A stretch of DNA of 63,870 bases, filler included. It is 9 parts of 9 records of this genome, joined end to end, with 100 filler letters (N's around TTAATTAATTAA, not from the genome) between each part and the next. Parts side by side here need not be neighbours in the genome. Positions count along the whole stretch, not along the records: positions 57,632 to 63,870 come from SRR31147125_24009; 8 more parts are not named here. One strand, 5' to 3'. The position numbers and the translations under genes are program-made. The notes under the pieces were generated by a model. That model was not told the origin of the DNA. It saw only the letters and a program-made list of their open reading frames with translations, and ran no database searches. Shown here one piece after another: positions 4,339 to 63,870 of this stretch (positions are counted from its first letter, which is position 1; each line of letters begins with the position of its first letter).

Positions 4339-5448
4339 TTATAATCTCATTGGCATTATAACTGTTATGTAATTAGGATCATTCTCAGGGTTTATTTTTC
4401 CAGGAGAAATATTATCTTTCAAATTTAAATTAACACTATCTGTTTTTATAACTTGAAGTATATCTATTATATATTTAGCATTAAAACCAATAGATATATC
4501 TGCACCATTATAGTTAATATCAATTTCTTCTTTTGCATCTCCCAGATCTGGATTTGAAGATGTCAAAATCATAAGATCATTTACAATATTTATTTTTATA
4601 CCTTTAGATTTTTCGTTAGATAATACTGATATTCTCTTCAAAGAATGTAAAAATAAATCCTTATCTATTATCGCACTATTATTTGATATTTCAGGAATGA
4701 CGCGATTGTAATCGGGAAATTCTCCGTCAACCATTCGCATAATCAATGCAATATTATCAGCATTAATTGAAAAATTATTATCCGATATTCCAATTTCAAT
4801 TTGTTCATCATTATCATCAATCAACTTCTTTAATTCAATAATGCCTTTTTTAGGAAGAATAAAACCTTCTATAAATTTACCGGCAAGTTTTTCATCTAAT
4901 TGTTTCTCTATTTTTGATAGTCTATGACCATCAGTAGATACAAAAATAATATTTTTAGTCTCAGCATCAAATTTTATAAAAATACCCGTCAGATTAAATT
5001 TTGTTTCATCATTTGAAATTGAGAAGATTGTTTTCTCAATCATTTCATTTAATACTGACTTACTTATTTTAGTTATATTATTACTAATGTCTGGAAATTT
5101 AGGGAATTCTTCTGGAGATAAACCAACAAGATTAAATATTGATTTTCCGCATTTTATCTCAACCCAAAAATTATTTTTAGCAGTTATATAAATATCTTTA
5201 TCTGGAAGTTCTTTTATTATTTCAAATAATTTTTTAGCAGAGAGTGTTATTTTTCCTTCTTTTATTGTATTTACTTCATAACTAGCTTTAAGGCCAACTT
5301 CGAGATCTGTAGCAATAAATGTTATTTTATTATCTTTTGTTTCTATTAATACATTAGCAAGAATAGGAAGAGTGTGTTTTTTTTCTATTATGCCCTGAAC
5401 TTTTGTAAGTGCTTCTAAAAATGTACTTTTCTTAATAATAAATTCCAT
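4339..5448 (-). CDS. dnaN: DNA polymerase III beta sliding clamp
   Basis: ATDLE, STDGHRL, GEFPDY, GFNAKY, C-terminal MPMRL; GGAGG RBS upstream. Confidence 0.98.
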   Translation of the reverse strand: MEFIIKKSTFLEALTKVQGIIEKKHTLPILANVLIETKDNKITFIATDLEVGLKASYEVNTIKEGKITLSAKKLFEIIKELPDKDIYITAKNNFWVEIKCGKSIFNLVGLSPEEFPKFPDISNNITKISKSVLNEMIEKTIFSISNDETKFNLTGIFIKFDAETKNIIFVSTDGHRLSKIEKQLDEKLAGKFIEGFILPKKGIIELKKLIDDNDEQIEIGISDNNFSINADNIALIMRMVDGEFPDYNRVIPEISNNSAIIDKDLFLHSLKRISVLSNEKSKGIKINIVNDLMILTSSNPDLGDAKEEIDINYNGADISIGFNAKYIIDILQVIKTDSVNLNLKDNISPGKINPENDPNYITVIMPMRL

Positions 5449-5451
5449 CAC

Positions 5452-5648
5452 TTATCCTCCTACCCTAATAACTAGTTATATATTTAAAATGTATAGTAAT
5501 AGTAATAGGTCTTGTTGAAACTGTTTAAATCAGTTAACTATTTAAAATATAAAGAAAATTTTAAAAATATTATCTGTTTATAAAATGTTTAAAAAATAGA
5601 GTGAATGTTGATTTAAAATTTTATTTTCGGTTATTAACAAATTTCTTT
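5452..5648. other. Probable replication origin (oriC) in the dnaA-dnaN spacer
   Basis: AT-rich tract, TAG-TAA-TAG-TAA-TAG trinucleotide repeat at 5494-5508, then tandem degenerate DnaA boxes TGTTGAAAC and TGTTTAAAT (5513-5530), plus TGTTTATAA and TTATTAACA further along. Confidence 0.75.
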
Positions 5649-6984
5649 TTATGTTGATATTTTATCCATCAGCTTTTCCACAAGTGTCGTTGTGTGAATG
5701 TCATCATCCAATTTTTTTTCAATTTTTTTAATTGCGTGAATAATCGTCGAATGATCTTTCCCACCAAATTTATTTCCAATTTCCGGATACGACATATCCG
5801 TCAATTTTCTGCATATATACATAGCTATTTGTCTTGGGTAAACAATGCTTTTAAGTCGCTTCGAGGATCTCAATTCTGCTGTTTTCATCTGAAAATGCTC
5901 AGCGACAACTTTTTGTATTTTATCTGCAGTAATTTCCTTATTATCTTCAATAAGGATATCCTTCAAAATCTGTTTAGCCATATCCAGATCTATTGGTGTT
6001 GAGGTAAGACTGGAATATGCGCCAATTCTTATAAGGTATCCTTCGAGCTCTCTGACATTATTTGTTATTGAATTAGATAAAAAATAGATAACTTCTTCAG
6101 GTATATTAATTTTATTCTGATCAGCTTTCATCTTTAGAATAGCTTGCTTTGTTTCAGTATCAGGTGCCTGAATATCAGCTATAAGGCCCCATTCAAATCT
6201 CGATCTCAATCTTTCTTCTAATTCAGGAATTTCTTTAGGAAATTTATCAGATGTTACGACTATCTGTTTATGTGACTCATAAAGTGCATTAAATGTATGA
6301 AAAAATTCTTCTTGAGTACTTTTTTTACCTGCAATAAATTGAATATCATCTATTAATAGTATATCTATTGATCTGAACTTGTTTCTAAATTCATCCATCT
6401 TTGCATGTCTTAAAGAATTTATTAATTCATTTGTAAATTTTTCTGATGAATAATAACAAACTTTTAAGTTTTTATTATCTTTTATAATTTTGTTACCAAT
6501 AGCATGAATTATATGTGTTTTTCCAAGGCCAACACCACCATATATGAATAATGGGTTATATGTCGTGGCTGGATTATTTGATACAGCGAGAGCTGCTGCA
6601 TGTGCAAATTGATTTGATGATCCTGATACAAAAGTATCAAAAGTGTATTTAGGATTTATATTTGAAAAATCTATCGTATTAATTAAATCATTTATTTTTT
6701 TCTTTTGTTATATTTGTATCTTTTAAATTTTCTTTTATCTTTATTTTACTGTTAATATTTATTCTCAGATTATGGTTATTATAGCCTAATTGATTAAAAA
6801 TATTTTCTATTGAAAATCTATAATTTTCGTTGACCCAATCTTTAATAAATTTATTGGGGACCTCAGCCTCTATAATATTATTTTTAATATTTATTAATTT
6901 TATAGGTTTAAGCCATGTTTTTATATTCTGATCGCTAATTTGATCGCTTAATTTATTTAAAACTTTTTCCCACAGGTTTTCCAT
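5649..6984 (-). CDS. dnaA: Chromosomal replication initiator DnaA, split by one extra A near 6695-6701
   Basis: Domain I ORF 6688-6984 joins [42 protein letters not shown] and [12 protein letters not shown] once one A is removed. Confidence 0.96.
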
Positions 6985-6993: not shown

Positions 6994-7202
6994 CTTTTTT
7001 AACAGCTGTTTATAAAACTGTAAGTTATTGAAATATTTATGAAATTATAAGAATTATAGGGAAATTGGCCAACTGAATTATTACTATATAGATAATCGTC
7101 GTTATCCGCCACATTTTTTTTACTGTAATTATTATTGACATAGACTAAATTATATGTTTAGTAGTGTTGCTTTGTCATTTTCAGGACCGGAGGATATAAA
7201 TC

Positions 7203-7268
7203 ATGTCTAAAAGAACTTTTCAGCCAAGTCGCATCAAGCGTAAGCGGACTCATGGCTTTAGAAAAAAA
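7203..7268 (+). CDS. rpmH: 50S ribosomal protein L34, truncated by contig end
   Basis: MSKRTFQPSRIKRKRTHGFRK; GGAGG RBS; divergent from dnaA. Confidence 0.95.
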
Positions 7269-7368
7269 NNNNNNNNNNNNNNNNNNNNNNNNNNNNNNNN
7301 NNNNNNNNNNNNTTAATTAATTAANNNNNNNNNNNNNNNNNNNNNNNNNNNNNNNNNNNNNNNNNNNN
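7269..7368. other. Artificial contig spacer
   Basis: N44-TTAATTAATTAA-N44, giving stops in all six frames. Confidence 0.99.
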
Positions 7369-8941
7369 TTTTTGAGTCAAGCAATCCCCAGCGTACCAAG
7401 TCAAGTTTTCGCATACTCTCTCCCCCAAACTCCCATGCACGCTCGTTTACGATCGCATTAAAGAAGTCAGAATCATAGTTTTGAATTTCAGGTGATCCAG
7501 TTCCAAAAGCTCTTTCCCTAACTTTCTCCAATGCCTGCCTAGCTGTAATACTTGCACCAGCATATGAAGCATCAGGTCCATTAAGAGCATTCATTGCTTC
7601 AGCGTACATTAGATAGACATCTGAGTAGCGCATAACAATCCAGTTGATTCCGGTTGGGGTACGCGATGTAGCTGTAGAGGCAATATCCTGATAGCTCCCA
7701 CCGGTCCAAAAGAAATTCCATTTACCAAGACGAACAGACATGATATCATTTCTCATCGTTTCTTTATTCATACCATCTCTTTTACCGTAGCTAGGCCAAT
7801 AGCAAGCGTAATCACGACGCAAATCGTTTGGTGTAAATGAGTAAAAATAATACCCGTTTGTACTTACATAAGTTCCTCCGAAACCACGAGAACCGTAACC
7901 GATACCTCCATCAATTGCTCGCCCCATTAGTGTACCAATATCGCCACTATATCCAACACCATTTGCAACCTCAAATAGATTTTCGTTAAAGGGGTTATAC
8001 TTTAAGCCACAAACTGATTTCCATACATTTCCATAATCAGGATCTAAAGAGTGTGGGTTATCAGGATCTGAAATCAGTTCAGCACATTGTTTAGCCGCAA
8101 TTTCATAATAATCTCTCCAATTATTTGGTCGCCCAACATAGTAGTCATTTATGGCTTCCATTCCTGGATTATTTTCGGTGTTTGGATAACGTTCTACATT
8201 TGTATCCGGGAACTGACCACCATCCCGTACAGACCATCCTCCGGCAAAAAGGGCAACACGAGCCAATAATCCTTTCGCAAAACCTTTTGTTACTCGTTCG
8301 CAATTATAATCTGCCTTCTCTCCAAGCCATGGTAAATAATCAATTGCCTCAGTCAGGTCTTCCACAATTGAGCTATATATACTATCCCTGTCAACTTTCC
8401 CCATATAAACATTTGAAAGATCTGACTTAGACATACTAGATTTATAAGGTATATCTCCCCAACGACGTACCAACTCGAAGTTAGCTAAAGAACGTAATGC
8501 CAATGCTTCACCCAAATATGGTTCCATTTTCTCGGGGGCGCTAATAATCATCTCAGAATTACGGATTCCATCTACAGATGCATTTGCAAGTTCTACCAAT
8601 TTAAAAATAGAACTCCATCTAACCGTGCGGTTATACCAGTCGCACCAGTAGTTAGCAGCTCCAGTATCACTTGTTTTATCTGTATTTGTTTTTGAAGGAT
8701 AACCACTAGCTAACTCAATATCAGAAACGCCCTGCCAGTTTACTGACATTTTTTGGCCATAAACGTAGGTGTCTGATAATTTAGTATAAACTCCCATAAT
8801 AGCAGCTCTTGCCATACCATCATTCTCAAAAACAACTTCACTACTTTGTATTGAAGGTGACTTCGTATCCAGAAAGTCATCAGTACATGCGCTAAACAGC
8901 AATGCTACTGACACTATTAAGTATAATAATTTATTATTCAT
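7369..8941 (-). CDS. SusD/RagB family outer-membrane lipoprotein, 3' truncated
   Basis: Lipobox FSAC; GEALALRS, MRYSDVYLMYAEA, ERAWEFGGESMRKLDLVRWG; downstream of SusC. Confidence 0.93.
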
Positions 8942-8951
8942 GATTCAATCT

Positions 8952-11900
8952 CTAAAAAGTTACGTTAATTCCAAAAATATATGCTTTTGATTTCGGGTAT
9001 GCAGAGTTGTCAACACCCGGTGTCAAATTACTATTCGATGTATTAACTTCAGGATCCTGTCCGCTATAAGAAGTTAGAACAAATACATTATTCGCTGTTC
9101 CATAAACACGCATATTTTGCACTCCGAATTTTTTGGTTAAGTTTCGTGGTAATGTATAACCAAATGAAAGGTTACCAAGACGCAGGAATGAACCATCCTC
9201 AACTGCCCAATCAGTCATTACTGTTGCATTTGTCATTGGATGCCAATATTTTTTGTTCGCATTTAGTTCTTGTATTTTTTCAGGGTTTGCAAATTCTCCG
9301 TAGTAAATATTTCTTCCAGTCTCCGGCTCAATAAATGTAAACCTGTTTCCCAGGCTCATTTCTGTTGTCATATTCTGATAACGTTTTGATCCGGCAAAAC
9401 TGTTGTAATCGATTTTACTTGCATTAAAAATATCATTGCCATAAGACCAGTTAAACATAGCAACCAAATCAAACCCTTTCCATCCAGTTGTAATGCTGAA
9501 ACCACCAGTATGTTTCGGCTGTGCATTTCCAATTACCCGACGATCATTATCAGCATCAATTTTTCCGTCACCATTTAAATCTTTCAGTTTCATGTGACCC
9601 GGACCGTAAAAGTCTCCTGCCCTACTTAAAACACCAGTTACATCAACAATGCCTTCGTTTGGAACCCATTTTTGTGTAGCCTGGTCAAATGAAAATTCAT
9701 CAAAGGAATACATACCATCATGCAGATATCCCCAAATTAGCCCAACTTCTTCTCCTACAATAACCCGGTAATTGTCACGTCCAATGTCAGGTCCACCACC
9801 ATTCAAAATCATCTGATCACTGTTTGTTCCATACAATGCATCTACCCTATTTTTGTTGAACGAGATGTTAAAGTTCATATCAAGGAAAAAGTCTTTTGTC
9901 TTTACAAGGCTACCATTCAATGTAAGCTCAATCCCTTTGTTTGTTGTTTGTCCCAAGTTTTGATATTGATAATCATAACCGGAATGAGAAGGAAGATCCA
10001 CTCTCATAATCAAATCTTTACTTATGTCTTTATAAAGATCAACAGTTAAGCTTATACGTTCATTAAGAAAACCAAGGTCAAATCCTAAGTTTGAGGAGTA
10101 TTTTGTTTCCCATGATAAGTTTTCGTTACGCAAAGTAGAACCAGTTACTAAGGCACTTTGCCCCACTTCATTTTGGTAATACAACCTTCTGGTACTTGTT
10201 TCCGGGCTATATGTTTGACGCCAGTATGAACCTACACGAGCATTCCCGGCCAAACCATAACTTAAACGAACTTTCATGTTGGATAACCAATTCTTTGTTG
10301 ATTGCATAAAGTTTTCTTCGGATACACGCCATGCCAAAGAACCAGCAGGGAAAACACCCCATTTGTTACCCGGTGAGAAAACATTTGTTCCATCTGCACG
10401 AGCAGTAAATGTTAGGTAGTAACGATTATCAAAAATATAATTGGCACGCCCAAAGAATGATTGTGTACGATTAGGTTCTGAAATTGTTGTATAAGTTGGC
10501 TCTTGAGTACCATTATTCCACATAGCCAGGATATTCTCTGCACTGTAATCGTGTGGGTAATAATCAGAATTGATTTTCATCTCATCTCTTTCGGAGTTAT
10601 TCATCTCATAACCTGTTGTAAAATCGAAGCTATGTTTAGCTATACTGTTTTTATAAAAAAGCACTCCCCTTGTAGTCCAGCCATTTCCATTCCAATACTG
10701 GCGATATGCAACAGGTTGTCCTGCTTTTGAATTTGCTTCTCCTGTATTCTTAAGATAGATTTGATCTGTTCTGTCAAATCTAAAGGAATAAGAACCTTCA
10801 ACTCTCATTGACAAGCCTTTAATAATTTCCCATTTTAATGCAGTATTATAGGTGTTATTGAACCTTATTTGCTTTTTATACTCGTTAGCAATATTATAAA
10901 ATGGATCATTTAGGTTACTGATATTTTCAACGTTATACCCATCACCCAAGTCATCTAAGGTAAGGCTTGTTAGTGTTCCAACAGGTGGGTACTTTATACA
11001 GTCTCTCAATTTACGACCAGCAGAAACACTTGCTCCATTAATAATACGATATGACATTTTTGGATTGAATTCGAGTTCCAACTTGTCATTGAATTTCTTT
11101 TTGATCTTGACGTTCAAGTTATGACGAGAATAATCGGAGGTCTTCATTATATAATCCTCCATATCAACCGTATAGCTAACACTGTAAATAAGCGATTTGT
11201 CACCGCCGCTCATATTCAGGTTGTAGTTTTGCTTCACACCTGTTTCGCTAAACAACCTATCCTGCCAGTCGTCTCCTTCTCTTGATTTGTAAATATCTAA
11301 ATCTTCCCAACGACCATATTTTCCAAAAAAACCTGCTGACTCGCCAGAGTCTAGTTCGCGTTGTAAATAAACATACTCATACGGTGAAAGCACAGGGGTA
11401 TAATTGTACATGCTGTTAAAACCTACAGATGAATTGAATTTGACAGTTGTTTTACCAGCTTTTCCGCTTTTTGTAGTAATAAGAATTACACCATTAGCAC
11501 CTTTTGCCCCGTATATAGCGGTTGAAGAAGCATCTTTCAATAAGTCAAAACTTTCAATATCGCCAGGAGGAATATCATTGATACTGCTCACCTGAAATCC
11601 ATCTACAATAAACAAAGGGGAATTATCCTGGGAAATAGAACCTCCACCACGAACACGAATATTAATAGCAGCATCTGGTGAACCTTCTGTTGTAACAATA
11701 CTTACACCGGCCATACGTCCGGTAATAGCTGAAGCTGCAGAAGTTACTGGAATACTTTTCAGAACATTTTCTCCAACTGAAGCAACAGCACCTGTCAAAT
11801 CTTTACGTTTTGCAGTACCATACCCAATAGCAACAACCTCATCTAAACCAATAGATGCTTCCTGCATTGATAGATTAATTATACTTTGACCTTGAACATT

Positions 11901-57631: not shown

Positions 57632-57632
57632 T

Positions 57633-58151
57633 GAGTCAATCATTAATGAAAAACTGGCGGAATTTATCGCAAAAGAGTTGACCCTACAAAACAATGTTAG
57701 AAATCTATTTTTAGAAATGGATGGATTAGCATTATTTCTAAAATATTTATACAAAAATCACGAGAAAATAAAATTTACTAAAAAAGAGATTTATAATGAT
57801 TTTTTTAAAGCTCCTTTTATAAAAAGTTATTTGGATAGAAATGGAATTGATAAACCAACAGAAGAGGGTGCAAAACACCGAGTTCCCTTCATGCTTAATT
57901 TGCTAGAAGCATTGGGCATTATAAAACAAGAACGAAGTGAAATCGAATTATTAGGTTTCTATCCGAGTCATCGTCTCTTCGAATTTATTACCGATGAAAA
58001 TGGTAATTCAATTTCAAAGCAAATTTCTGCCAAGGTAGGTAATTATTTTAGCACAGGGGAAGATGAAACAACTGATGAAGAAAGGTCTTTATTAAGAGAA
58101 GAATACGGAAAACAATTTTTAACTAATAATTACTACTTAAATAGGATATAG
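57633..58151 (+). CDS. Unknown protein, C-terminal part; winged-helix-like; candidate restriction or sensor component
   Basis: Frame open from contig edge; GAKHRVPFMLNLLEALGIIKQE resembles a wHTH helix-wing; stop lies 1 nt before the MTase ATG. Confidence 0.55.
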   Translation, partial: ESIINEKLAEFIAKELTLQNNVRNLFLEMDGLALFLKYLYKNHEKIKFTKKEIYNDFFKAPFIKSYLDRNGIDKPTEEGAKHRVPFMLNLLEALGIIKQERSEIELLGFYPSHRLFEFITDENGNSISKQISAKVGNYFSTGEDETTDEERSLLREEYGKQFLTNNYYLNRI

Positions 58152-58152
58152 T

Positions 58153-59115
58153 ATGGCTAATAAATCTCATTTTAATAGTGGATTAAAAGCTATAAATCAG
58201 CTGAATAAAAACGGTGAAAAACATAGTTCATATATTGACGGTATAAACGCGACAAAAACAATACAAGCTTTTTTTATAGAAGATGCTATTAAGTTCTTAA
58301 AGAAATTACCCGACAATTCAATTCAACTCATATTAGTTGACCCACCCTACAATTTAGATTTAGATACTTGGGATACTTATGAGAACTATTTAGAATGGGC
58401 AAAACAATGGCTTGATGAAATTTATAGAATATTATTACCAACAGGAAATTGTGTAATCTTTGGTGGTTTTCAGTATCAAGACTTAAAAAAGGGAGATTTA
58501 CTTGAAATACTCCACTATACAAGGCACAATACAAATTTGAGGTTTACTAATTTAATTATTTGGTATTACAAAAACGGCATGAGTGCTCATAGATATTTTG
58601 CTAATAGGCACGAAGAAGCTGTTTGGTTAACGAAAACAAAAAAATATTATTTTGATTTAGATTCAGTACGCTCTCAATATACACCAGAACAAAAACAGTT
58701 AGCTCTAAAAGATAAAAGACTAATTCCAGCAAATATTGAGAAAGGAAAGAACCCAACTAATGTATGGGAAATTGGACGTTTAAATGGTAATTCTAAAGAG
58801 CGTGTAGGTCACCCTACTCAAAAGCCATTAGAAATTATTAGAAGATTTGTTAAGAGCTTATCTTATGAAGGTTCTATTGTTTTGGATTTCTTCGCTGGTT
58901 CGGGTACAGCTGCAAGAGTTTGTGTTGAAGAAAATAGACATTCAATAATGGTGGATTCTGATGCAAAAACATTAGAATATTTTAAAGAACATATTTCTAG
59001 AAAAGACAGAAATTTATCACACAAACCATTTGAACAGTTTGTAAATGAGGATTTAAAGAGCATTTTTGAAAGAATTTACAGTGTTAATGAACAAGAAAAC
59101 GAAGAAAGTTTATAA
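58153..59115 (+). CDS. Beta-class amino DNA methyltransferase, M.RsrI-like (predicted GAATTC m6A)
   Basis: DPPY before HPTQKP and DFFAGSG; MANKSHFNSG, NGMSAHRYFANRHEE, KDKRL and RLNGNSKERVGHPTQKP match M.RsrI as recalled. Confidence 0.9.
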   Translation: MANKSHFNSGLKAINQLNKNGEKHSSYIDGINATKTIQAFFIEDAIKFLKKLPDNSIQLILVDPPYNLDLDTWDTYENYLEWAKQWLDEIYRILLPTGNCVIFGGFQYQDLKKGDLLEILHYTRHNTNLRFTNLIIWYYKNGMSAHRYFANRHEEAVWLTKTKKYYFDLDSVRSQYTPEQKQLALKDKRLIPANIEKGKNPTNVWEIGRLNGNSKERVGHPTQKPLEIIRRFVKSLSYEGSIVLDFFAGSGTAARVCVEENRHSIMVDSDAKTLEYFKEHISRKDRNLSHKPFEQFVNEDLKSIFERIYSVNEQENEESL

Positions 59116-59147
59116 CCTTTCTTCTAATTGAATTGATAATAATTATA

Positions 59148-60134
59148 ATGGCAAGAAAAGTACAGCATTCTTTATTAGCAAAAGCAAAAACAAATAAGAA
59201 AGATGAGTTTTATACTCAGCTTATAGATATAGAAAGTGAATTAAAATACTATGAAAATCATTTTAAAGGTAAAACCGTTTATTGTAATTGTGATGACCCA
59301 AATATTAGTAACTTTTTTAACTATTTTTCCACAAACTTCGAGAGACTTGGGTTAAAGAAAATAATCACTGCTTGCTATAAAAATCAAAGTCAGGAATTAA
59401 TTGCAAATACAGAAAGCGAGAAAGGGTTTTACAGTGAATATGCTCCAGAAAGAGGAAAATATAACAGAGCCAACATAGAAAAAATTGATGTAGTTCCGTT
59501 TAATGGAGACGGTGACTTTCGAAGTCAAGAGAGCATCGAGCTTTTGAAACAATCTGATATTGTTGTAACTAACCCTCCATTCTCATTGTTTAGGGAATAT
59601 GTTGCTCAACTAATAAAGTATAATAAAATGTTTCTAATAATTGGTAATGTAAATGCTATTACGTATAAAGAAATATTTAAATTAATTAAAGAAAATAAAG
59701 CATGGCTAGGAATAAATTTAGGTAGAGGAATTTCGGGGTTTATTGTTCCTGAACATTATGAGCTTTATGGTACAGAAGCTCGTGTCGATATCTCAGGAAA
59801 AAGAATAGTATCTCCAAATAATTGTTTGTGGCTAACAAATTTAGATATAGATAAACGACACAAAGATATAGTTCTTTCAAAAACATTTCATGGCAACGAA
59901 GGTGAATATCCTAAATACGACAATTTTGATGCTATTAACGTTAACAAAACCAAAGACATTCCAAAAGACTACTATGGTTTTATGGGGGTTCCAATAACGT
60001 TTTTACACAAGTTCAATCCTGATCAATTTGAGATAATAAAATTTCGAAAGGGAAATGATGAGAAGGATTTATCAATAAATGGTAAATGCCCCTACTTTAG
60101 AATTTTAATCCGTAACAAAAGGTTACAAAATTGA
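59148..60134 (+). CDS. EcoRI-family adenine DNA methyltransferase, M.EcoRI-like
   Basis: DEFYT, YCNCDDP, GDGDFRS, VVTNPPFSLFREY, GFIVPEHYELYGTEAR, SPNNCLWLTNLD, GKCPYFRILI match M.EcoRI as recalled along its whole length. Confidence 0.93.
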   Translation: MARKVQHSLLAKAKTNKKDEFYTQLIDIESELKYYENHFKGKTVYCNCDDPNISNFFNYFSTNFERLGLKKIITACYKNQSQELIANTESEKGFYSEYAPERGKYNRANIEKIDVVPFNGDGDFRSQESIELLKQSDIVVTNPPFSLFREYVAQLIKYNKMFLIIGNVNAITYKEIFKLIKENKAWLGINLGRGISGFIVPEHYELYGTEARVDISGKRIVSPNNCLWLTNLDIDKRHKDIVLSKTFHGNEGEYPKYDNFDAINVNKTKDIPKDYYGFMGVPITFLHKFNPDQFEIIKFRKGNDEKDLSINGKCPYFRILIRNKRLQN

Positions 60135-60181
60135 ATTTTATGAGATTCCAAGTAGCAACACTCAGATAATTTGAAATAATT

Positions 60182-61899
60182 ATGAGAATATTAAACATTT
60201 CATTAGAGAATTACAGAAACTTAAATAATGTAGAAATACATTTTGATGCTACTTGCAATTTCATCGTAGGTGAAAACAACTTGGGTAAGTCAAACATTCT
60301 AAATCTGATTAACACAGTATTTACACGTAGAGCGTTTTGGATTGACGATTTTAAGGATAAATCATTACCCATACACATTGAACTTAGTTTACAATTAGAA
60401 GTTGTCGAAATAGGTCATTTTGAAGATTTATTTGACCTTGAAGATTATTCAAAGATAAATATTGTTTGTAAACAACACTCACCAGATGATAACCTTGAGT
60501 ACTATCACAAGGAGACAGAAACCTATATTGCTCCACCATTAATAAAGTGTTTAAATTTTATATTTTACGATTCCTTGAGAAACCCTATTGCTGAGATCAA
60601 TTTTGATAAAGGTCGTGGTGTTGGACGCTTTTTAACTAATATTGTAAAAAGATATTTAAGTGAAAAAGAGTTAAATACAGAAAATCTAATCGACGGAACT
60701 GAAATTGAAGGGTTAATAACTGATTTAAATTCAAAACTCTATAAAATTAAGGCTTTTAAGGATTATAATGTTTCTGCAAGTGTTGAAAATGAAATCGAAC
60801 ATTTGATTCCAAAACTAATATCTCTTAAAGACAATAAAGGGGGTACTCTATCGAAGTGTGGATATGGAGTTCAGTTTTTATTATTAGTTACACTTTCTAT
60901 TTTAGATAAACTTCAAACAATTACAGAGCAAAGGGGAGAAAGAGGTGTGTTTGAGGATGAAGAATCAGGTGAAAAATCTATTTCAATAGTACTAGGTCTT
61001 GATGAACCTGAAATTCATTTACATCCATACATGCAACGTTCATTAGTTAAATATCTTAATCGGGTAATCAATAATGAAAATGAGGATTTCGCATTTTTGG
61101 TTAAAGAACTCTTTGGAATAGATAAATTTATTGGTCAGGTTATTATTGCAACACATTCTCCCAATATAATTTTAAATGATTACAAACAGATTGTAAGAAT
61201 ATATAAAGAAGAGGAAAGTATTGAAATTATATCTGGAAGTAATATTAATTTGGGTGAACAATTAAACAAACATCTATTTCTTCATTTTCCATTTATTAAA
61301 GAAGCCTTTTTTCTCGATGTGCAATTTTTGTGGAAGGTGATTCAGAATATGGCAGTTTTCCTTTTTTTGGAGAAAAATTAGCTGTTGATTTTGATGATTT
61401 AGGAATTACCGTGATACAAGCTGGAGGTGATTCTGTAAAGCAACTTATACAGATTGCTGAGAAGTTTGGTATTCCATGTATTGGGATTAACGATAGCGAT
61501 GGAGATAATAGTCCGACAGGAATAGATAATCTGTTAAAAACGAATGAATGTGATTTTGAGGCAGAATTAATGTTCTTGATTGACATTGAAAAAGAATCCG
61601 TTTTGGAAGATATCGTTTGCGAATATGACTCATTAAAAACAGAACGTGAACTTGATATTAAAGCAATAAATAAACGGGCTTTCAAAAAATATGGTTTCTT
61701 GCCCTCGCCTATCGAAAAGAAACTCAAATTATCTGAGATTGAAAAAACAGACCATGTCCATTTAAAAGCATTTTATTCAACCTGGTTTGCAATAAATAAA
61801 TCTCAAACATTAGCTCGATTCATCGGATTGAAATTAGATAATAATGAAATACCTGAAGTTTATAAGAATTTGATTGTTCAGGCAAAAGATATGTGCTAA
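60182..61899 (+). CDS. gajA: OLD-family ATP-dependent nuclease (ABC ATPase + TOPRIM), Gabija GajA-like; T-run frameshift near 61307-61312
   Basis: GENNLGKS, GYGVQ, LDEPEIHLHP, ATHSP; adding one T gives EAFFSRCAIFVEGDSE and the DxD motif NDSD. Confidence 0.82.
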
Positions 61900-63671
61900 T
61901 GGAAAATTCTACACTTGAATTAATAAAAACTAGAATAAAGGAAAAGCACCAAGGTGATGAAAAACAACTTGATGTTATATTCTCTCCTGAAAAAAGAATT
62001 TTAGTAGAAGCTCCTGCTGGCTATGGGAAAACTCATACGATGGTAAGTCGCATTGCATATTTGATTGCAAGCAATCAAATTCCATCACCTAAAAGACTTC
62101 TAGCTTTAACGTTTAGTGTGAATGCTGCATACAAAATCAAAAAAGATGTTAGCAAAAACATTCCTGCAATTCTTGATGGTGTTGGCAAAGAAATTAATAT
62201 AAGGGAAAAATCTTATGTCTCAAATTATCATGGGTTTTGCAGAACAATATTAAAGAAATATGGGCAAAAATTACATTCTAGCTTATTGAGCTTAGATACA
62301 TTACAATCAATTGATGATAATGATACAAGCAAATTAATGCAGACATTTAAGAATCTGTCACTTAAAGATGCAGAACTATTATCAGAATTTAATATTTCTG
62401 TAAAAAATATAAAAGGAAAAAAGCTTAATGAAAAGATTGATAGATACAACGAAATTGTAATTTCTGAGTTGTTACCAAAAGGGGCAATTCCTTTTAATGG
62501 TATATTGACTTTGACTCTAAAGCTATTCAAAGATTTTCCGAATATACTCTCGTTTTATCAAAATTATTATACTACAGTACTCGTTGATGAATTTCAAGAC
62601 ACGAACATACTTAGCTATTGGTTATTACACTTTTTAGTAATTGATAAGACCAATGTAATATTTTTAGGAGATTCACTTCAAAGAATATACGGCTTTATTG
62701 GGGCAATACCCAATTTATTAACCCATGCTAAAGATAAATTTAATCTAAATGTCATTACCTTAGATAAGAATTATCGTTTTGCATCTAATCCCAATATGCT
62801 TCAACTAGATAAAATCATAAGACAAAATGCATTAACACCCTTTGCTAATCCGAACTCTTTAAAATCAGAAATTGAGTTTTCTATATACGATGAACAGAGT
62901 ATTGAAGCTTTGGAAGTTGTAAAAAAGACACTTAAAACACTACAAGCTGACAAAGAATCAAATTTATCTATTCTTGTAAAACAGAGAGGGCCAAATATTG
63001 ATTTTATAATTGAAACATTCAAGCACAATAAGATTCCTTTTTTCTACGGTCTTTTTACTGATGAGGATGCTAACTACATAAACTTTAACCGTAAGTGCTT
63101 GTATGAATTTATTGAATTAATAAAAGACAGGAAGAGAGTTACTAAAAAATTAGGTAAAGCCCATTCGAAAAAAATTAGAGAAATCTTTACCGATAATAAT
63201 ACTGCCTTGATTCAAGCAATGTTTGAATTATTAGATGTTTTCTGGTTACGCCTATTTATGGACTATTCCTTCTTAACTGATGAAGACAGGATAAATTTAG
63301 TAAAGGATACATTTGAGCATAATGGATTAAAACAGTTTATGGAATTTCTTGATTCCAAGATTATTATTTCAACTGTACATGCAGCAAAAGGTCTTGAATG
63401 GGATTATGTTATTTTGCCTGATATGGAGCAGGATTTATTTCCAAATTGGTTTGGCTTATGTGGTAAATGTAAAAGTAAGCAGGATTGTAATATTATTGTT
63501 GATAAGGACAATGAGAATAAGTTCCTAGAAGAATTGAGTATTTTTTATGTGGCTGTTACAAGAGCAAGAAAAAAGGTGTCTTTCAGTGCTAGTGAAATTC
63601 AACTAACGAAATATAATCCTAAGAAAAAATATAAGTTGTTTTATGAAATTACCAGGATTGGAGTTTTTTAA
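61899..63671 (+). CDS. gajB: UvrD/PcrA-like SF1 helicase, Gabija GajB-like; true end may be 63675
   Basis: APAGYGKT, LTFSVNAA, VDEFQDT, GDSLQRIYGF, NYRF, TVHAAKGLEWD, YVAVTRARK; TAATG overlap with the OLD gene. Confidence 0.82.
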   Translation: MENSTLELIKTRIKEKHQGDEKQLDVIFSPEKRILVEAPAGYGKTHTMVSRIAYLIASNQIPSPKRLLALTFSVNAAYKIKKDVSKNIPAILDGVGKEINIREKSYVSNYHGFCRTILKKYGQKLHSSLLSLDTLQSIDDNDTSKLMQTFKNLSLKDAELLSEFNISVKNIKGKKLNEKIDRYNEIVISELLPKGAIPFNGILTLTLKLFKDFPNILSFYQNYYTTVLVDEFQDTNILSYWLLHFLVIDKTNVIFLGDSLQRIYGFIGAIPNLLTHAKDKFNLNVITLDKNYRFASNPNMLQLDKIIRQNALTPFANPNSLKSEIEFSIYDEQSIEALEVVKKTLKTLQADKESNLSILVKQRGPNIDFIIETFKHNKIPFFYGLFTDEDANYINFNRKCLYEFIELIKDRKRVTKKLGKAHSKKIREIFTDNNTALIQAMFELLDVFWLRLFMDYSFLTDEDRINLVKDTFEHNGLKQFMEFLDSKIIISTVHAAKGLEWDYVILPDMEQDLFPNWFGLCGKCKSKQDCNIIVDKDNENKFLEELSIFYVAVTRARKKVSFSASEIQLTKYNPKKKYKLFYEITRIGVF

Positions 63672-63870
63672 CTAGATACGTGTCGTTCTAGTTAACAAAT
63701 CAATATTTAAGTATCTCAATAACACATGGATCGTAAAACATGAACATACTAAAAAAGGATGGAATATCACCTACCTCATTTATACCATTCCAACAAAAAA
63801 ATAACCAAATCCAACCAACTCTAGCAAATCATAACCAAACACAACCAATCCGTAACCATAGTCCTGCTAT

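What the first reader, a model, noticed from the sequence alone, without database searches (positions are those of the whole stretch)
58153..60134. Two dissimilar methyltransferases predicted to hit the same site (M.RsrI-like + M.EcoRI-like) in tandem
Seen: adjacent co-oriented MTase genes 32 nt apart, one beta-class (DPPY...FAGSG) and one EcoRI-family (NPPF). Known: M.RsrI and M.EcoRI are the classic pair of dissimilar enzymes that both make m6A in GAATTC, each serving its own R-M system alone. A palindromic site needs only one MTase. Inference: the pair could be (a) insurance against phage MTase inhibitors, (b) a split of labour between ssDNA/hemimethylated and dsDNA substrates as in DpnII-type systems, (c) one enzyme per strand of a drifted asymmetric site, or (d) a displacement caught in progress.
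Basis: partly seen in the sequence, partly recalled or inferred. Interest (0 to 1): 0.8.

Follow-up and report, generated by a model that had tools for sequence, protein, structure and literature searches.

The report
Two GAATTC methylase genes in tandem
Two unrelated DNA-methylating enzymes that most likely mark the same six-letter DNA site sit side by side and are inherited together, a rare but recurring variant of an ordinary bacterial restriction-modification system.

Summary
M1 (58153-59115) is a close homologue of M.RsrI (PDB 1eg2, E 4e-100). M2 (59148-60134), 32 nt downstream, is 69.7% identical to the methylase beside the gene annotated 'type-2 restriction enzyme EcoRI' on E. coli plasmids. 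Relatives of each enzyme separately partner EcoRI-family nucleases, so GAATTC is the likely target of both. This is inferred, not measured.

The pair is not unique. The same cassette, with the same 32-nt spacer, lies in locus L002 as R(EcoRI family)-HTH-M1-M2. Four more pairs are inferred from matching contig lengths. Across the six pairs M1 and M2 co-diverge (r 0.90, Mantel 1 of 720).

The pair is rare: 1 of 80 M2 loci, and none in the plasmid, phage or E. coli collections searched.

Both genes are intact and under purifying selection (dN/dS 0.12 each).

The best reading is a stable double-antidote cassette, formed when an RsrI-type methylase module entered an EcoRI-type operon.

In this window no nuclease gene is visible. 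The contig ends 520 nt upstream. The neighbours are the tail of a nuclease-helicase-type gene and a Gabija system.

This is a new variant of a known kind and of moderate interest.

The parts
57633..58151 (+). 3' end (172 codons, open at the contig's 5' end) of a gene called U here. It encodes the C-terminal domain of a nuclease-helicase-type or PLD-nuclease-type protein. Its stop codon lies 1 nt before the M1 ATG.
   Evidence: The ORF is open to the contig start. It has no Pfam, NCBIfam, PADLOC or PHROG hit. It has 73 relatives at E<=0.001. In those relatives the domain ends ~890-905-aa DUF559/MTES_1575 + ResIII + Helicase_C + HNH_repeat proteins and ~550-aa PLD (NgoFVII-like) proteins. The helicase core of the long forms hits PADLOC mREase_IV at 3e-67. 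A profile against PDB gives only weak MarR-type winged-helix hits, E 0.004-0.2.
58153..59115 (+). M1: M.RsrI-type N6-adenine DNA methyltransferase, 320 aa.
   Evidence: PF01555 at 8.5e-53. PDB M.RsrI 1eg2 at E 4e-100 over residues 1-282. PADLOC MTase_II PDLC03327 at 1.2e-102. DPPY at residue 63 and FAGSG at residue 247. It keeps 154 of 155 columns that are >=95% conserved in 118 homologues. dN/dS is 0.12 against L002.
59116..59147 (.). 32-nt spacer between M1 and M2. The spacer in L002 (6969-7000) has the same length.
   Evidence: Coordinates come, the alignment. A hairpin over the M1 stop (59101-59124) is not better than chance.
59148..60134 (+). M2: M.EcoRI-family N6-adenine DNA methyltransferase, 328 aa.
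   Evidence: PF13651 at 4.5e-132, full length. PADLOC PDLC03297 at 1.8e-146. It is 69.7% identical to the methylase of E. coli EcoRI plasmid L081. NPPF is at residue 142. It keeps 169 of 171 conserved columns in 119 homologues. dN/dS is 0.12 against L002.
60182..61899 (+). Neighbour, not part of the pair: gajA (Gabija ATPase/TOPRIM nuclease), read as two ORFs (60182-61381 and 61330-61899).
   Evidence: PADLOC GajA PDLC00085 positions 1-380 (3.1e-156) and 384-577 (5.2e-46). The two frames meet at a T6 run, 61307-61312.
61893..63671 (+). Neighbour, not part of the pair: gajB (Gabija UvrD-type helicase).
   Evidence: PADLOC GajB PDLC00107 at 2.2e-222. Pfam UvrD-helicase and UvrD_C.

Best explanation
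M1 and M2 form a two-gene modification cassette that is inherited as a unit. Both enzymes most likely make N6-methyladenine in GAATTC. M1 is the RsrI type and M2 is the EcoRI type.

The cassette most likely arose when a methylase module of an RsrI-type system, with a small HTH regulator, came to lie between the nuclease gene and the methylase gene of an EcoRI-type operon. Systems with the same recognition site belong to one 'incompatibility group'. One of the two nucleases can therefore be lost without killing the cell, which leaves R-M-M.

Both methylases have since been kept by selection. The cassette acts as a doubled antidote that keeps GAATTC methylated.

In this window the cassette has no nuclease gene next to it. 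It lies in a defence island, between the 3' end of a nuclease-helicase-type gene and a Gabija system. Here it either serves an EcoRI-type nuclease encoded elsewhere, or it is an orphan pair left after loss of the nuclease. An orphan pair would still protect the genome from incoming GAATTC systems.

Shown: the identity of both genes, their intactness, the recurrence of the cassette, co-divergence of the two genes, and purifying selection. Inferred: the target site, the order of events, and the selective reason.
For: Identity of the two genes:
- M1 against M.RsrI scores E 4e-100, and the next structure scores only 118 bits.
- The middle block of that alignment (query 103-205) is the best conserved, 61 of 103 by my count. 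From recall of the beta-class motif order, the target-recognition region lies there.
- M2 is 69.7% identical to the methylase of the E. coli EcoRI plasmid.

Partners of each type:
- 50 of 80 M2 loci have a full-length EcoRI-family nuclease adjacent: 43 upstream on the same strand, 6 downstream, 1 upstream on the opposite strand.
- An M1 relative (78% identical) on Acinetobacter plasmid NZ_CP044480 is followed by an EcoRI-family nuclease.

The cassette elsewhere:
- L002 carries R (PF02963, 6.7e-135), an HTH gene, M1 (86% identical) and M2 (80% identical), with the same 32-nt spacer. The block is a low-GC island of about 3.4 kb in a genome of about 50% GC.
- DNA homology between the window and L002 begins at the M1 start codon.
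- Exact contig-length matches between the M1 and M2 hit lists give four more putative pairs: 7421, 7241, 4337 and 1359268 nt. The last is Christiangramia sp. ASW11-125.
- Over the six pairs, M1 and M2 pairwise identities correlate at r 0.90. In an exact Mantel test, 1 of 720 permutations reaches the observed value.
- All six M2s fall in one 19-row subclade with SH-aLRT 99 (quick tree).

Direction of the merger:
- The L002 nuclease is 65% identical to the E. coli plasmid R.EcoRI and 64-75% identical to the other M2-linked nucleases. It is only 49% identical to the nuclease beside the M1-type methylase.

Function of both genes:
- dN/dS is 0.12 for each gene, with dS 0.74 and 0.95.
- M1 keeps 154 of 155 conserved columns and M2 keeps 169 of 171.

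Incompatibility of systems with the same site is stated in passages of PMC3874152.

Loss of the nuclease is common. In 27 of 80 M2 loci it is split (5), a remnant (9) or absent (13).
Against: - No methylation data exist. The target site of each enzyme is inferred from homology and from neighbours in other genomes.
- 54% identity to M.RsrI does not guarantee the same site. PF13651 relatives at 40-57% identity are often fused to other methylases and probably have other sites.
- In this window no EcoRI-family nuclease is found anywhere (tblastn). The gene upstream of M1 differs from the one in L002.
- GAATTC is under-represented in the window: 15 observed against 33 expected in shuffles. This is not distinctive. 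The Markov observed/expected ratio of 0.57 ranks 16th lowest of 64 palindromes, and the window is a mix of contigs.
- Only two cassettes are seen as DNA. Four rest on contig-length coincidences, of which about one could be chance by my rough estimate.
- The closest M2 relatives include L001, which has no M1 and carries a nuclease remnant directly against M2. A single origin therefore requires later losses.
- The tree is the quick version. The careful search did not finish.
Confidence: 0.6

Rival explanations
1. Division of labour, as in DpnII or BcnI. Both enzymes recognise GAATTC, but one handles a substrate the other handles poorly: single-stranded DNA entering by transformation or conjugation, or fully unmethylated versus hemimethylated duplex. 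On this view both are needed and selection keeps both.
For: Both genes are under purifying selection and co-diverge, which a truly redundant copy would not obviously do. There is precedent. DpnII has DpnM plus the ssDNA methylase DpnA, and BcnI also has an ss-methylase (abstract and passages of PMC3573125). Isospecific beta-class methylases differ in their activity on ssDNA (passages of PMC5974420). M1 is in the same Pfam family as DpnA (5hfj at E 2e-8).
Against: M1-type enzymes serve as the only methylase next to an EcoRI-family nuclease on plasmid L083, and M.RsrI does the same in its own system (from recall). M1 is therefore a normal duplex enzyme. Similarity to DpnA is weak and covers only residues 215-277. 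No competence-type or separate promoter was found between the genes. The sigma-70 scan found fewer sites than in shuffles and does not cover Bacteroidota promoters.
Confidence: 0.15
2. Different sites. One of the two has drifted to a related or broader site, for example one sharing the AATT core. The two genes would then be two modification functions that happen to be neighbours, not a doubled one.
For: Specificity cannot be read from family membership. PF13651 proteins at 40-57% identity occur fused to m5C or Dam-type methylases. M1 is only about 54% identical to M.RsrI. Unrelated methylase genes do lie near M2 relatives in 4 of 80 loci: L025, L031, L036 and L064.
Against: M2 is 70% identical to the methylase of the EcoRI plasmid. 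M1 relatives at 78-86% identity sit beside EcoRI-family nucleases. The L002 nuclease keeps the MAAGNAIER stretch and the NR.DR stretch that are invariant among five EcoRI-family nucleases. The role of those residues in recognition is from recall. The best-conserved part of the M1/M.RsrI alignment is its middle block. An EcoRI isoschizomer with similar divergence, LraI, has been shown to keep the site (passages of PMC5896346).
Confidence: 0.12
3. The pair is the modification half of a new ATP-dependent restriction system whose nuclease is the upstream gene U. U is a nuclease-helicase-type or PLD-nuclease-type protein with a C-terminal DNA-binding domain, and it is translationally coupled to M1.
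For: The stop codon of U lies 1 nt before the M1 ATG. Relatives carry the U domain at the end of nuclease + SF2-helicase or PLD-nuclease proteins. The domain has weak winged-helix similarity.
Against: The same cassette in L002 follows a different gene, and homology starts only at the M1 ATG. None of the 80 M2 loci holds a U relative. The helicase core of the long relatives resembles methyl-directed Type IV enzymes, and such enzymes do not need a methylase. Only 172 codons of U are visible. The plasmid collection gave no context for U.
Confidence: 0.08
4. A transient state. One of the two methylase genes is a redundant leftover on its way to decay, a displacement caught in progress.
For: Merger of two systems of the same specificity makes one copy dispensable in principle (PMC3874152). 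Decay of the nuclease gene is common in this family.
Against: Both ORFs are intact in both loci seen as DNA. dN/dS is 0.12 for each over dS 0.7-0.9. Nearly all conserved residues are kept. Six pairs co-diverge.
Confidence: 0.05

Closest known systems
EcoRI restriction-modification system (R.EcoRI + M.EcoRI, GAATTC; gene order R then M)
   Same: M2 belongs to this family: PF13651 over its full length, and 69.7% identity to the methylase of E. coli EcoRI plasmids. Of 80 relatives' loci, 43 have the canonical R-then-M order, L002 among them. In L002 the nuclease of the cassette is of the EcoRI clade.
   Different: An M.RsrI-type gene lies directly upstream of M2, 32 nt away. In L002 it sits, together with an HTH gene, between R and M. 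In this window no R gene is present in the visible sequence.
RsrI restriction-modification system (R.RsrI + M.RsrI, GAATTC)
   Same: M1 is a close homologue of M.RsrI along residues 1-282. An M1 relative on plasmid L083 is the sole methylase beside an EcoRI-family nuclease that is 48% identical to R.EcoRI. That is the degree of divergence reported for R.RsrI against R.EcoRI (passages of PMC4081073).
   Different: Here M1 is not followed by a nuclease gene but by a second, unrelated methylase gene. The nuclease in L002 is of the EcoRI clade, not of the clade linked to M1-type methylases.
Type II systems with two methylases for one palindromic site: DpnII (DpnM + DpnA), BcnI, BsuMI (bsuMA-bsuMB, CTCGAG)
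   Same: Two methylase genes for one symmetric site sit in one gene cluster (passages of PMC3573125; PMC11311917). In BcnI the two enzymes are of different permutation classes; this detail is recalled and was not read here.
   Different: A pairing of the EcoRI and RsrI types was not found in my searches. No evidence of ssDNA specialisation was obtained. The cassette also occurs without an adjacent nuclease.
Solitary (orphan) methyltransferases acting as immunity against restriction-modification addiction (for example Dcm versus EcoRII)
   Same: A methylase without a linked nuclease can neutralise killing by a system of the same site (passages of PMC3874152). The window's cassette has no linked nuclease in view.
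   Different: Two different enzymes are kept rather than one. Orphan status is not proven, because the contig is short.

Membership tests
M.RsrI-type beta-class N6-adenine DNA methyltransferase (Pfam PF01555) - M1 | Match to PF01555 above the curated cut-off | tested here: met
   180 bits against a cut-off of 26.7, covering profile positions 1-220 of 221.
M.RsrI-type beta-class N6-adenine DNA methyltransferase (Pfam PF01555) - M1 | Catalytic DPPY motif placed before the FxGxG AdoMet motif (the permuted beta-class order; this definition is from recall) | tested here: met
   DPPY at residue 63 and FAGSG at residue 247. Both align with the same motifs of M.RsrI.
M.RsrI-type beta-class N6-adenine DNA methyltransferase (Pfam PF01555) - M1 | Specific closeness to M.RsrI rather than to other family members | tested here: met
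   338 bits to 1eg2 against 118 bits for the next structure. PADLOC single-family hit PDLC03327 at 1.2e-102 against 9.7e-59 for the next.
M.RsrI-type beta-class N6-adenine DNA methyltransferase (Pfam PF01555) - M1 | Methylates the second A of GAATTC | not testable with these tools
   Inferred only from homology and from EcoRI-family nucleases beside relatives.
M.EcoRI family (Pfam PF13651) - M2 | Full-length match to PF13651 and the NPPF catalytic motif | tested here: met
   441 bits, covering profile positions 2-344 of 345. NPPF at residue 142.
M.EcoRI family (Pfam PF13651) - M2 | Close to the methylase that partners R.EcoRI | tested here: met
   69.7% identity over 327 aa to the methylase next to the gene annotated 'type-2 restriction enzyme EcoRI' on NZ_CP068038.
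M.EcoRI family (Pfam PF13651) - M2 | Methylates GAATTC | not testable with these tools
   Inferred. 50 of 80 close relatives (71-82% identical) have a full-length EcoRI-family nuclease adjacent.
Complete Type IIP restriction-modification system of EcoRI specificity | A cognate restriction endonuclease gene (PF02963) linked to the methylase gene(s) | tested here: not met
   tblastn with the nucleases of L002 and L081 finds nothing in the whole window at E<=1e-4. The 520 nt upstream and 3.7 kb downstream of the pair are other genes. The contig ends at 57632, so a more distant or unlinked gene cannot be excluded. The feature is met in the related locus L002.
DpnII/BcnI-type two-methylase system with an ssDNA methylase | One partner is a DpnA-like enzyme acting on single strands, with its own induced promoter | tested here: inconclusive
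   M1 matches DpnA structures only weakly, at E 2e-8 over residues 215-277. No promoter signal stands out. Activity on ssDNA is not testable here.
C-protein-controlled R-M system (for the relative L002 only) | A small HTH controller gene inside the operon, plus a C-box operator | tested here: inconclusive
   A 71-aa HTH_3 protein overlaps the M1 start in L002. A C-box was not searched for. The window has no such gene; U occupies that place.
Gabija (neighbouring genes) | GajA (ATPase + TOPRIM) next to GajB (UvrD-type helicase), both intact | tested here: inconclusive
   Both match PADLOC models strongly. GajA is read as two ORFs that meet at a T6 run. Whether this is a sequencing error or a real frameshift is unknown.

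The most novel reading that the evidence does not exclude
The M.RsrI-type and M.EcoRI-type genes form a mobile, co-evolving 'double antidote' module that selection keeps because the two unrelated enzymes are not interchangeable. They might differ in substrate (single-stranded, hemimethylated or unmethylated DNA), in timing, or in vulnerability to phage or plasmid interference. The module moves between contexts with and without a nuclease. Without a nuclease it would vaccinate a genome against the very widespread EcoRI-type selfish systems. That would make the textbook example of convergent methylases into a case of functional complementarity inside one operon.
Probability: 0.2. Interest if true: 0.6.

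Novelty: new variant of a known kind. Interest (0 to 1): 0.4.

Why it matters
M.EcoRI and M.RsrI are the classic pair of unrelated enzymes that perform the same reaction for homologous nucleases. Finding them fused into one conserved, co-diverging gene cassette gives a natural experiment on three questions. What happens when two restriction-modification systems of the same specificity meet? Which parts survive? Is a second, structurally unrelated antidote truly redundant?

The question is directly testable with simple expression and methylome reads. One isolate, Christiangramia sp. ASW11-125, appears to carry both genes on one contig.

The practical importance is modest. Two-methylase Type II systems are already known, and the site and chemistry are ordinary.

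Tried and rejected
- GAATTC avoidance as a sign of an active nuclease. The window has 15 sites against 33 +/- 5.6 in shuffles. The Markov observed/expected ratio of 0.57 is only the 16th lowest of 64 palindromes. The pair's own contig has 0 sites against about 2 expected. The window is a mix of contigs with GC from 0.29 to 0.50. This has no discriminating power.
- A conserved hairpin over the M1 stop codon. In the window it folds at -8.6 kcal/mol with z -1.7. The L002 counterpart is no better than shuffles. Dropped.
- Promoter and terminator scan of the contig. It found fewer promoter-like sites than in shuffles and no + strand terminator. Uninformative, and the tool does not model Bacteroidota promoters.
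- A fused M1-M2 protein. None of the 120 listed longer PF13651 proteins (of 839 found) carries PF01555.
- The pair in annotated collections. In plasmids, an M1-type gene at >=60% identity occurs in 1 record, which has no M2. In phages, 8 records match the M2 half only. In E. coli, 8 of 5426 genomes match the M2 half only.
- Context for U in plasmids: no match.
- Fold of U. Structure prediction would not accept jobs and the Atlas did not hold the sequences. A profile against PDB gave only weak MarR-type hits.
- Complex prediction was not used, because I make no claim that M1 and M2 bind each other.
- Literature. A search for M.RsrI + M.EcoRI + GAATTC found 1 paper, a labelling review seen only in the search listing. 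Searches on two methyltransferases with the same recognition sequence, on BcnI circular permutation, on GAATTC methylomes and on RsrI/EcoRI isoschizomers turned up no description of an RsrI-type plus EcoRI-type tandem. REBASE and subscription journals were not searchable.
Full report
WHAT THE WINDOW IS. The 63,870-nt window is not one piece of DNA. It is nine contigs joined by linkers of 44 N + TTAATTAATTAA + 44 N, with GC contents from 0.29 to 0.50. The finding lies in the last piece, 57632-63870 (6,239 nt, GC 0.30). Only 520 nt are visible upstream of the first methylase gene.

THE OBSERVATION. On the + strand the contig reads as follows:
- a 5'-open ORF, called U here, at 57633-58151;
- M1 at 58153-59115 (320 aa);
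- a 32-nt spacer;
- M2 at 59148-60134 (328 aa);
- gajA at 60182-61899, read as two ORFs;
- gajB at 61893-63671.

M1 matches Pfam PF01555 (8.5e-53) and M2 matches PF13651 'EcoRI_methylase' over the whole profile (4.5e-132). M1 has DPPY at residue 63 and FAGSG at residue 247. M2 has NPPF at residue 142. The ATG at 59148 agrees with the N-termini of relatives.

HOW CLOSE ARE THEY TO THE NAMED ENZYMES?
- M1 against all solved structures gives M.RsrI (1eg2) at E 4e-100 and 338 bits over residues 1-282. The next hit has 118 bits.
- Counting on the printed alignment, 151 of 282 positions are identical. The best-conserved block is 103-205, with 61 of 103 identical. From recall of the beta-class motif order, the target-recognition region lies in that block.
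- M2 has no solved relative.
- A tblastn search of plasmids finds small E. coli plasmids whose annotation reads 'type-2 restriction enzyme EcoRI' followed by an EcoRI-family methylase. M2 is 69.7% identical to that methylase over 327 residues.

WHAT DO RELATIVES SIT NEXT TO? A scan of one genome per species found 565 relatives of M2, and the best 80 loci were kept. tblastn with the nuclease of L002 classifies these 80 loci as follows:
- 43 have a full-length EcoRI-family nuclease directly upstream on the same strand;
- 6 have it downstream;
- 1 has it upstream on the other strand;
- 5 have it split into two pieces;
- 9 have only a remnant;
- 3 have it cut by the contig end;
- 13 have none.

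M2 therefore belongs to the ordinary, very widely transferred EcoRI-type R-then-M operon. The hosts span many phyla, and identities to M2 are 71-82%.

An M.RsrI-type gene next to M2 occurs in exactly one of the 80 loci, L002. In three loci (L020, L059, L062) fewer than 210 nt lie upstream of M2, so an M1 could have been missed there. A Pfam scan of 114 flanking ORFs found other DNA methylase domains near the unit in four loci (L025, L031, L036, L064). None is of the RsrI type.

From the M1 side, the only plasmid with a close relative (78% identical) is Acinetobacter schindleri NZ_CP044480. Its order is M1-type methylase, then an EcoRI-family nuclease, with a divergent HTH gene. Each methylase type can therefore serve an EcoRI-family nuclease on its own. 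That is the main ground for predicting GAATTC for both.

THE SAME CASSETTE ELSEWHERE. L002 is a contig of a Hydrogenedentota MAG. It carries the following genes:
- an EcoRI-family nuclease at 4885-5700 (PF02963, 6.7e-135);
- a 71-aa HTH_3 protein at 5807-6022;
- M1 at 6012-6968 (86% identical);
- M2 at 7001-7987 (80% identical).

The M1-M2 spacer is again 32 nt. The block is a low-GC island (0.29-0.37) between housekeeping genes in DNA of about 0.5 GC. DNA similarity between the window and L002 starts at the M1 start codon and runs through both genes. Upstream of M1 the two are unrelated.

The lists of close homologues of M1 and of M2 share five exact 'longest contig' lengths. These are 22254 (which is L002), 7421, 7241, 4337, and 1359268 (both named Christiangramia sp. 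ASW11-125). By a rough estimate about one such match could be chance. Two results argue the matches are real:
- Among the six putative pairs, the pairwise identities of M1 and of M2 correlate at r 0.90. In an exact Mantel test only the true pairing, 1 of 720 permutations, reaches that value.
- All six M2 proteins fall in one 19-row subclade of a 98-row tree, with SH-aLRT 99. This is the quick tree; the careful search did not finish.

The accession look-up that could have confirmed adjacency was switched off. No pair was found in the plasmid, phage or E. coli collections.

ARE BOTH GENES ALIVE? Between the window and L002, Nei-Gojobori dN/dS is 0.12 for M1 (dS 0.74) and 0.12 for M2 (dS 0.95). 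M1 keeps 154 of 155 columns that are at least 95% conserved in 118 homologues. M2 keeps 169 of 171 such columns in 119 homologues, and the two differences are Tyr to Phe. Neither gene looks like a decaying leftover.

WHERE DID THE CASSETTE COME FROM? The L002 nuclease is 65% identical to the E. coli plasmid R.EcoRI and 64-75% identical to the nucleases of other M2 loci. It is 49% identical to the nuclease that accompanies the M1-type methylase on the Acinetobacter plasmid. The backbone is therefore an EcoRI-type R...M operon. HTH-M1 looks like a module from an RsrI-type system that landed between R and M.

According to the review PMC3874152 (passages read), systems with the same recognition sequence form an incompatibility group. 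Either one can be lost without cell killing because the other still protects the sites. That gives a simple route to R-M-M. The same review notes that a solitary methylase can blunt killing by a system of the same site.

Loss of the nuclease is common in this family, affecting 27 of 80 loci. In L001, a close relative of the window's M2, a 44-codon nuclease remnant abuts M2.

THIS WINDOW'S COPY. No EcoRI-family nuclease is detectable anywhere in the window.

The gene before M1 ends 1 nt before the M1 ATG. It matches no family library. An exhaustive search found 73 relatives. In them the domain closes two kinds of protein:
- proteins of about 890-905 aa with a DUF559/MTES_1575 nuclease, a ResIII/Helicase_C helicase and an HNH_repeat;
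- proteins of about 550 aa with a PLD (NgoFVII-like) nuclease.

The helicase core of the long forms resembles PADLOC's methyl-directed Type IV model at 3e-67. A profile of the domain gives only weak winged-helix (MarR) hits in PDB.

Downstream lies a Gabija pair. The setting is a defence island. Whether the cassette here serves a nuclease encoded elsewhere or is an orphan pair cannot be decided from 6.2 kb.

MECHANISM AND RIVALS.
- Best reading (about 0.6): a co-inherited double antidote for GAATTC, born from a merger of two isospecific systems and kept by selection.
- Division of labour as in DpnII or BcnI (0.15). The precedents are in PMC3573125 and PMC5974420. This would explain why both genes are conserved, but nothing here tests it. 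M1-type enzymes also work alone elsewhere.
- Different sites (0.12). This is disfavoured by the closeness to the reference enzymes and by the nuclease partners. It is not excluded. More distant PF13651 proteins are often fused to other methylases.
- Partnership with the upstream nuclease-type gene (0.08). This is disfavoured because the cassette has a different upstream gene in L002.
- A transient state (0.05). This is contradicted by the selection data.

COMPARISON WITH WHAT IS KNOWN. Two methylases for one palindromic site are known in DpnII, BcnI and BsuMI. The EcoRI and RsrI nucleases are the classic 50%-identical isoschizomers (PMC4081073; PMC5896346). That their methylases are unrelated is textbook knowledge, which I recall rather than read here. 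My five literature searches found no report of the two methylase types in one cassette. REBASE could not be consulted, and the listing may exist there. I file this as a new variant of a known kind, of moderate interest (0.4).

Noticed in passing
window 1-63870: The window is nine separate contigs joined by linkers of 44 N + TTAATTAATTAA + 44 N. GC ranges from 0.29 to 0.50 between pieces, so distant parts of the window need not be neighbours in a genome.
   Followed up: yes
window 60182-61899 (T-run 61307-61312): The Gabija gajA gene is read as two overlapping ORFs that together cover the PADLOC GajA model (positions 1-380 and 384-577 of 580). The two frames meet at a run of six T. One base more would restore a continuous reading through the TOPRIM motif VEGDSE. 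This could be a homopolymer sequencing error or a real frameshift.
   Followed up: partly
window 57633-58151: This is an uncatalogued C-terminal domain of about 165 aa with no Pfam, NCBIfam, PADLOC or PHROG hit. Its 73 relatives place it at the end of either DUF559-nuclease + SF2-helicase + HNH_repeat proteins (~900 aa) or PLD-nuclease proteins (~550 aa). It has weak winged-helix similarity. It is possibly the target-binding module of a family of restriction-like nucleases.
   Followed up: partly
L001 6862-6993: A 44-codon remnant of an EcoRI-family nuclease gene abuts an intact M2-type methylase gene between housekeeping genes. It is a clear case of nuclease loss leaving an orphan methylase.
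   Followed up: partly
L064 7001-8913: An M2 relative without a nuclease is followed 30 nt later by a D12-class (Dam-like) methylase gene. A PF01555-like stretch lies further downstream (9523-10197). This is another tandem of unrelated methylase genes, probably from a different system.
   Followed up: no
proteins P0319-P0433: Many proteins of about 700 aa fuse a PF13651 (EcoRI-type) domain to a cytosine-5 methylase domain (PF00145). Several PF13651 proteins carry LAGLIDADG (PF14528) insertions that look like inteins. Four proteins of about 590-630 aa list PF13651 as their only domain, and their internal structure was not examined. All are only 38-60% identical to M2.
   Followed up: no
L001-L080: EcoRI-type R-M operons with methylases 71-82% identical to M2 occur in Bacteroidota, Cyanobacteriota, Pseudomonadota, Chlamydiota, Chloroflexota, Spirochaetota, candidate-phyla bacteria and a Woesearchaeota MAG. 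The family is unusually well conserved and very widely transferred.
   Followed up: partly
L002 4885-5700: The nuclease of the double-methylase locus is more diverged from the E. coli plasmid R.EcoRI (65% identity) than the nucleases of ordinary single-methylase loci are (72-81%). It keeps the conserved catalytic and MAAGNAIER stretches.
   Followed up: partly
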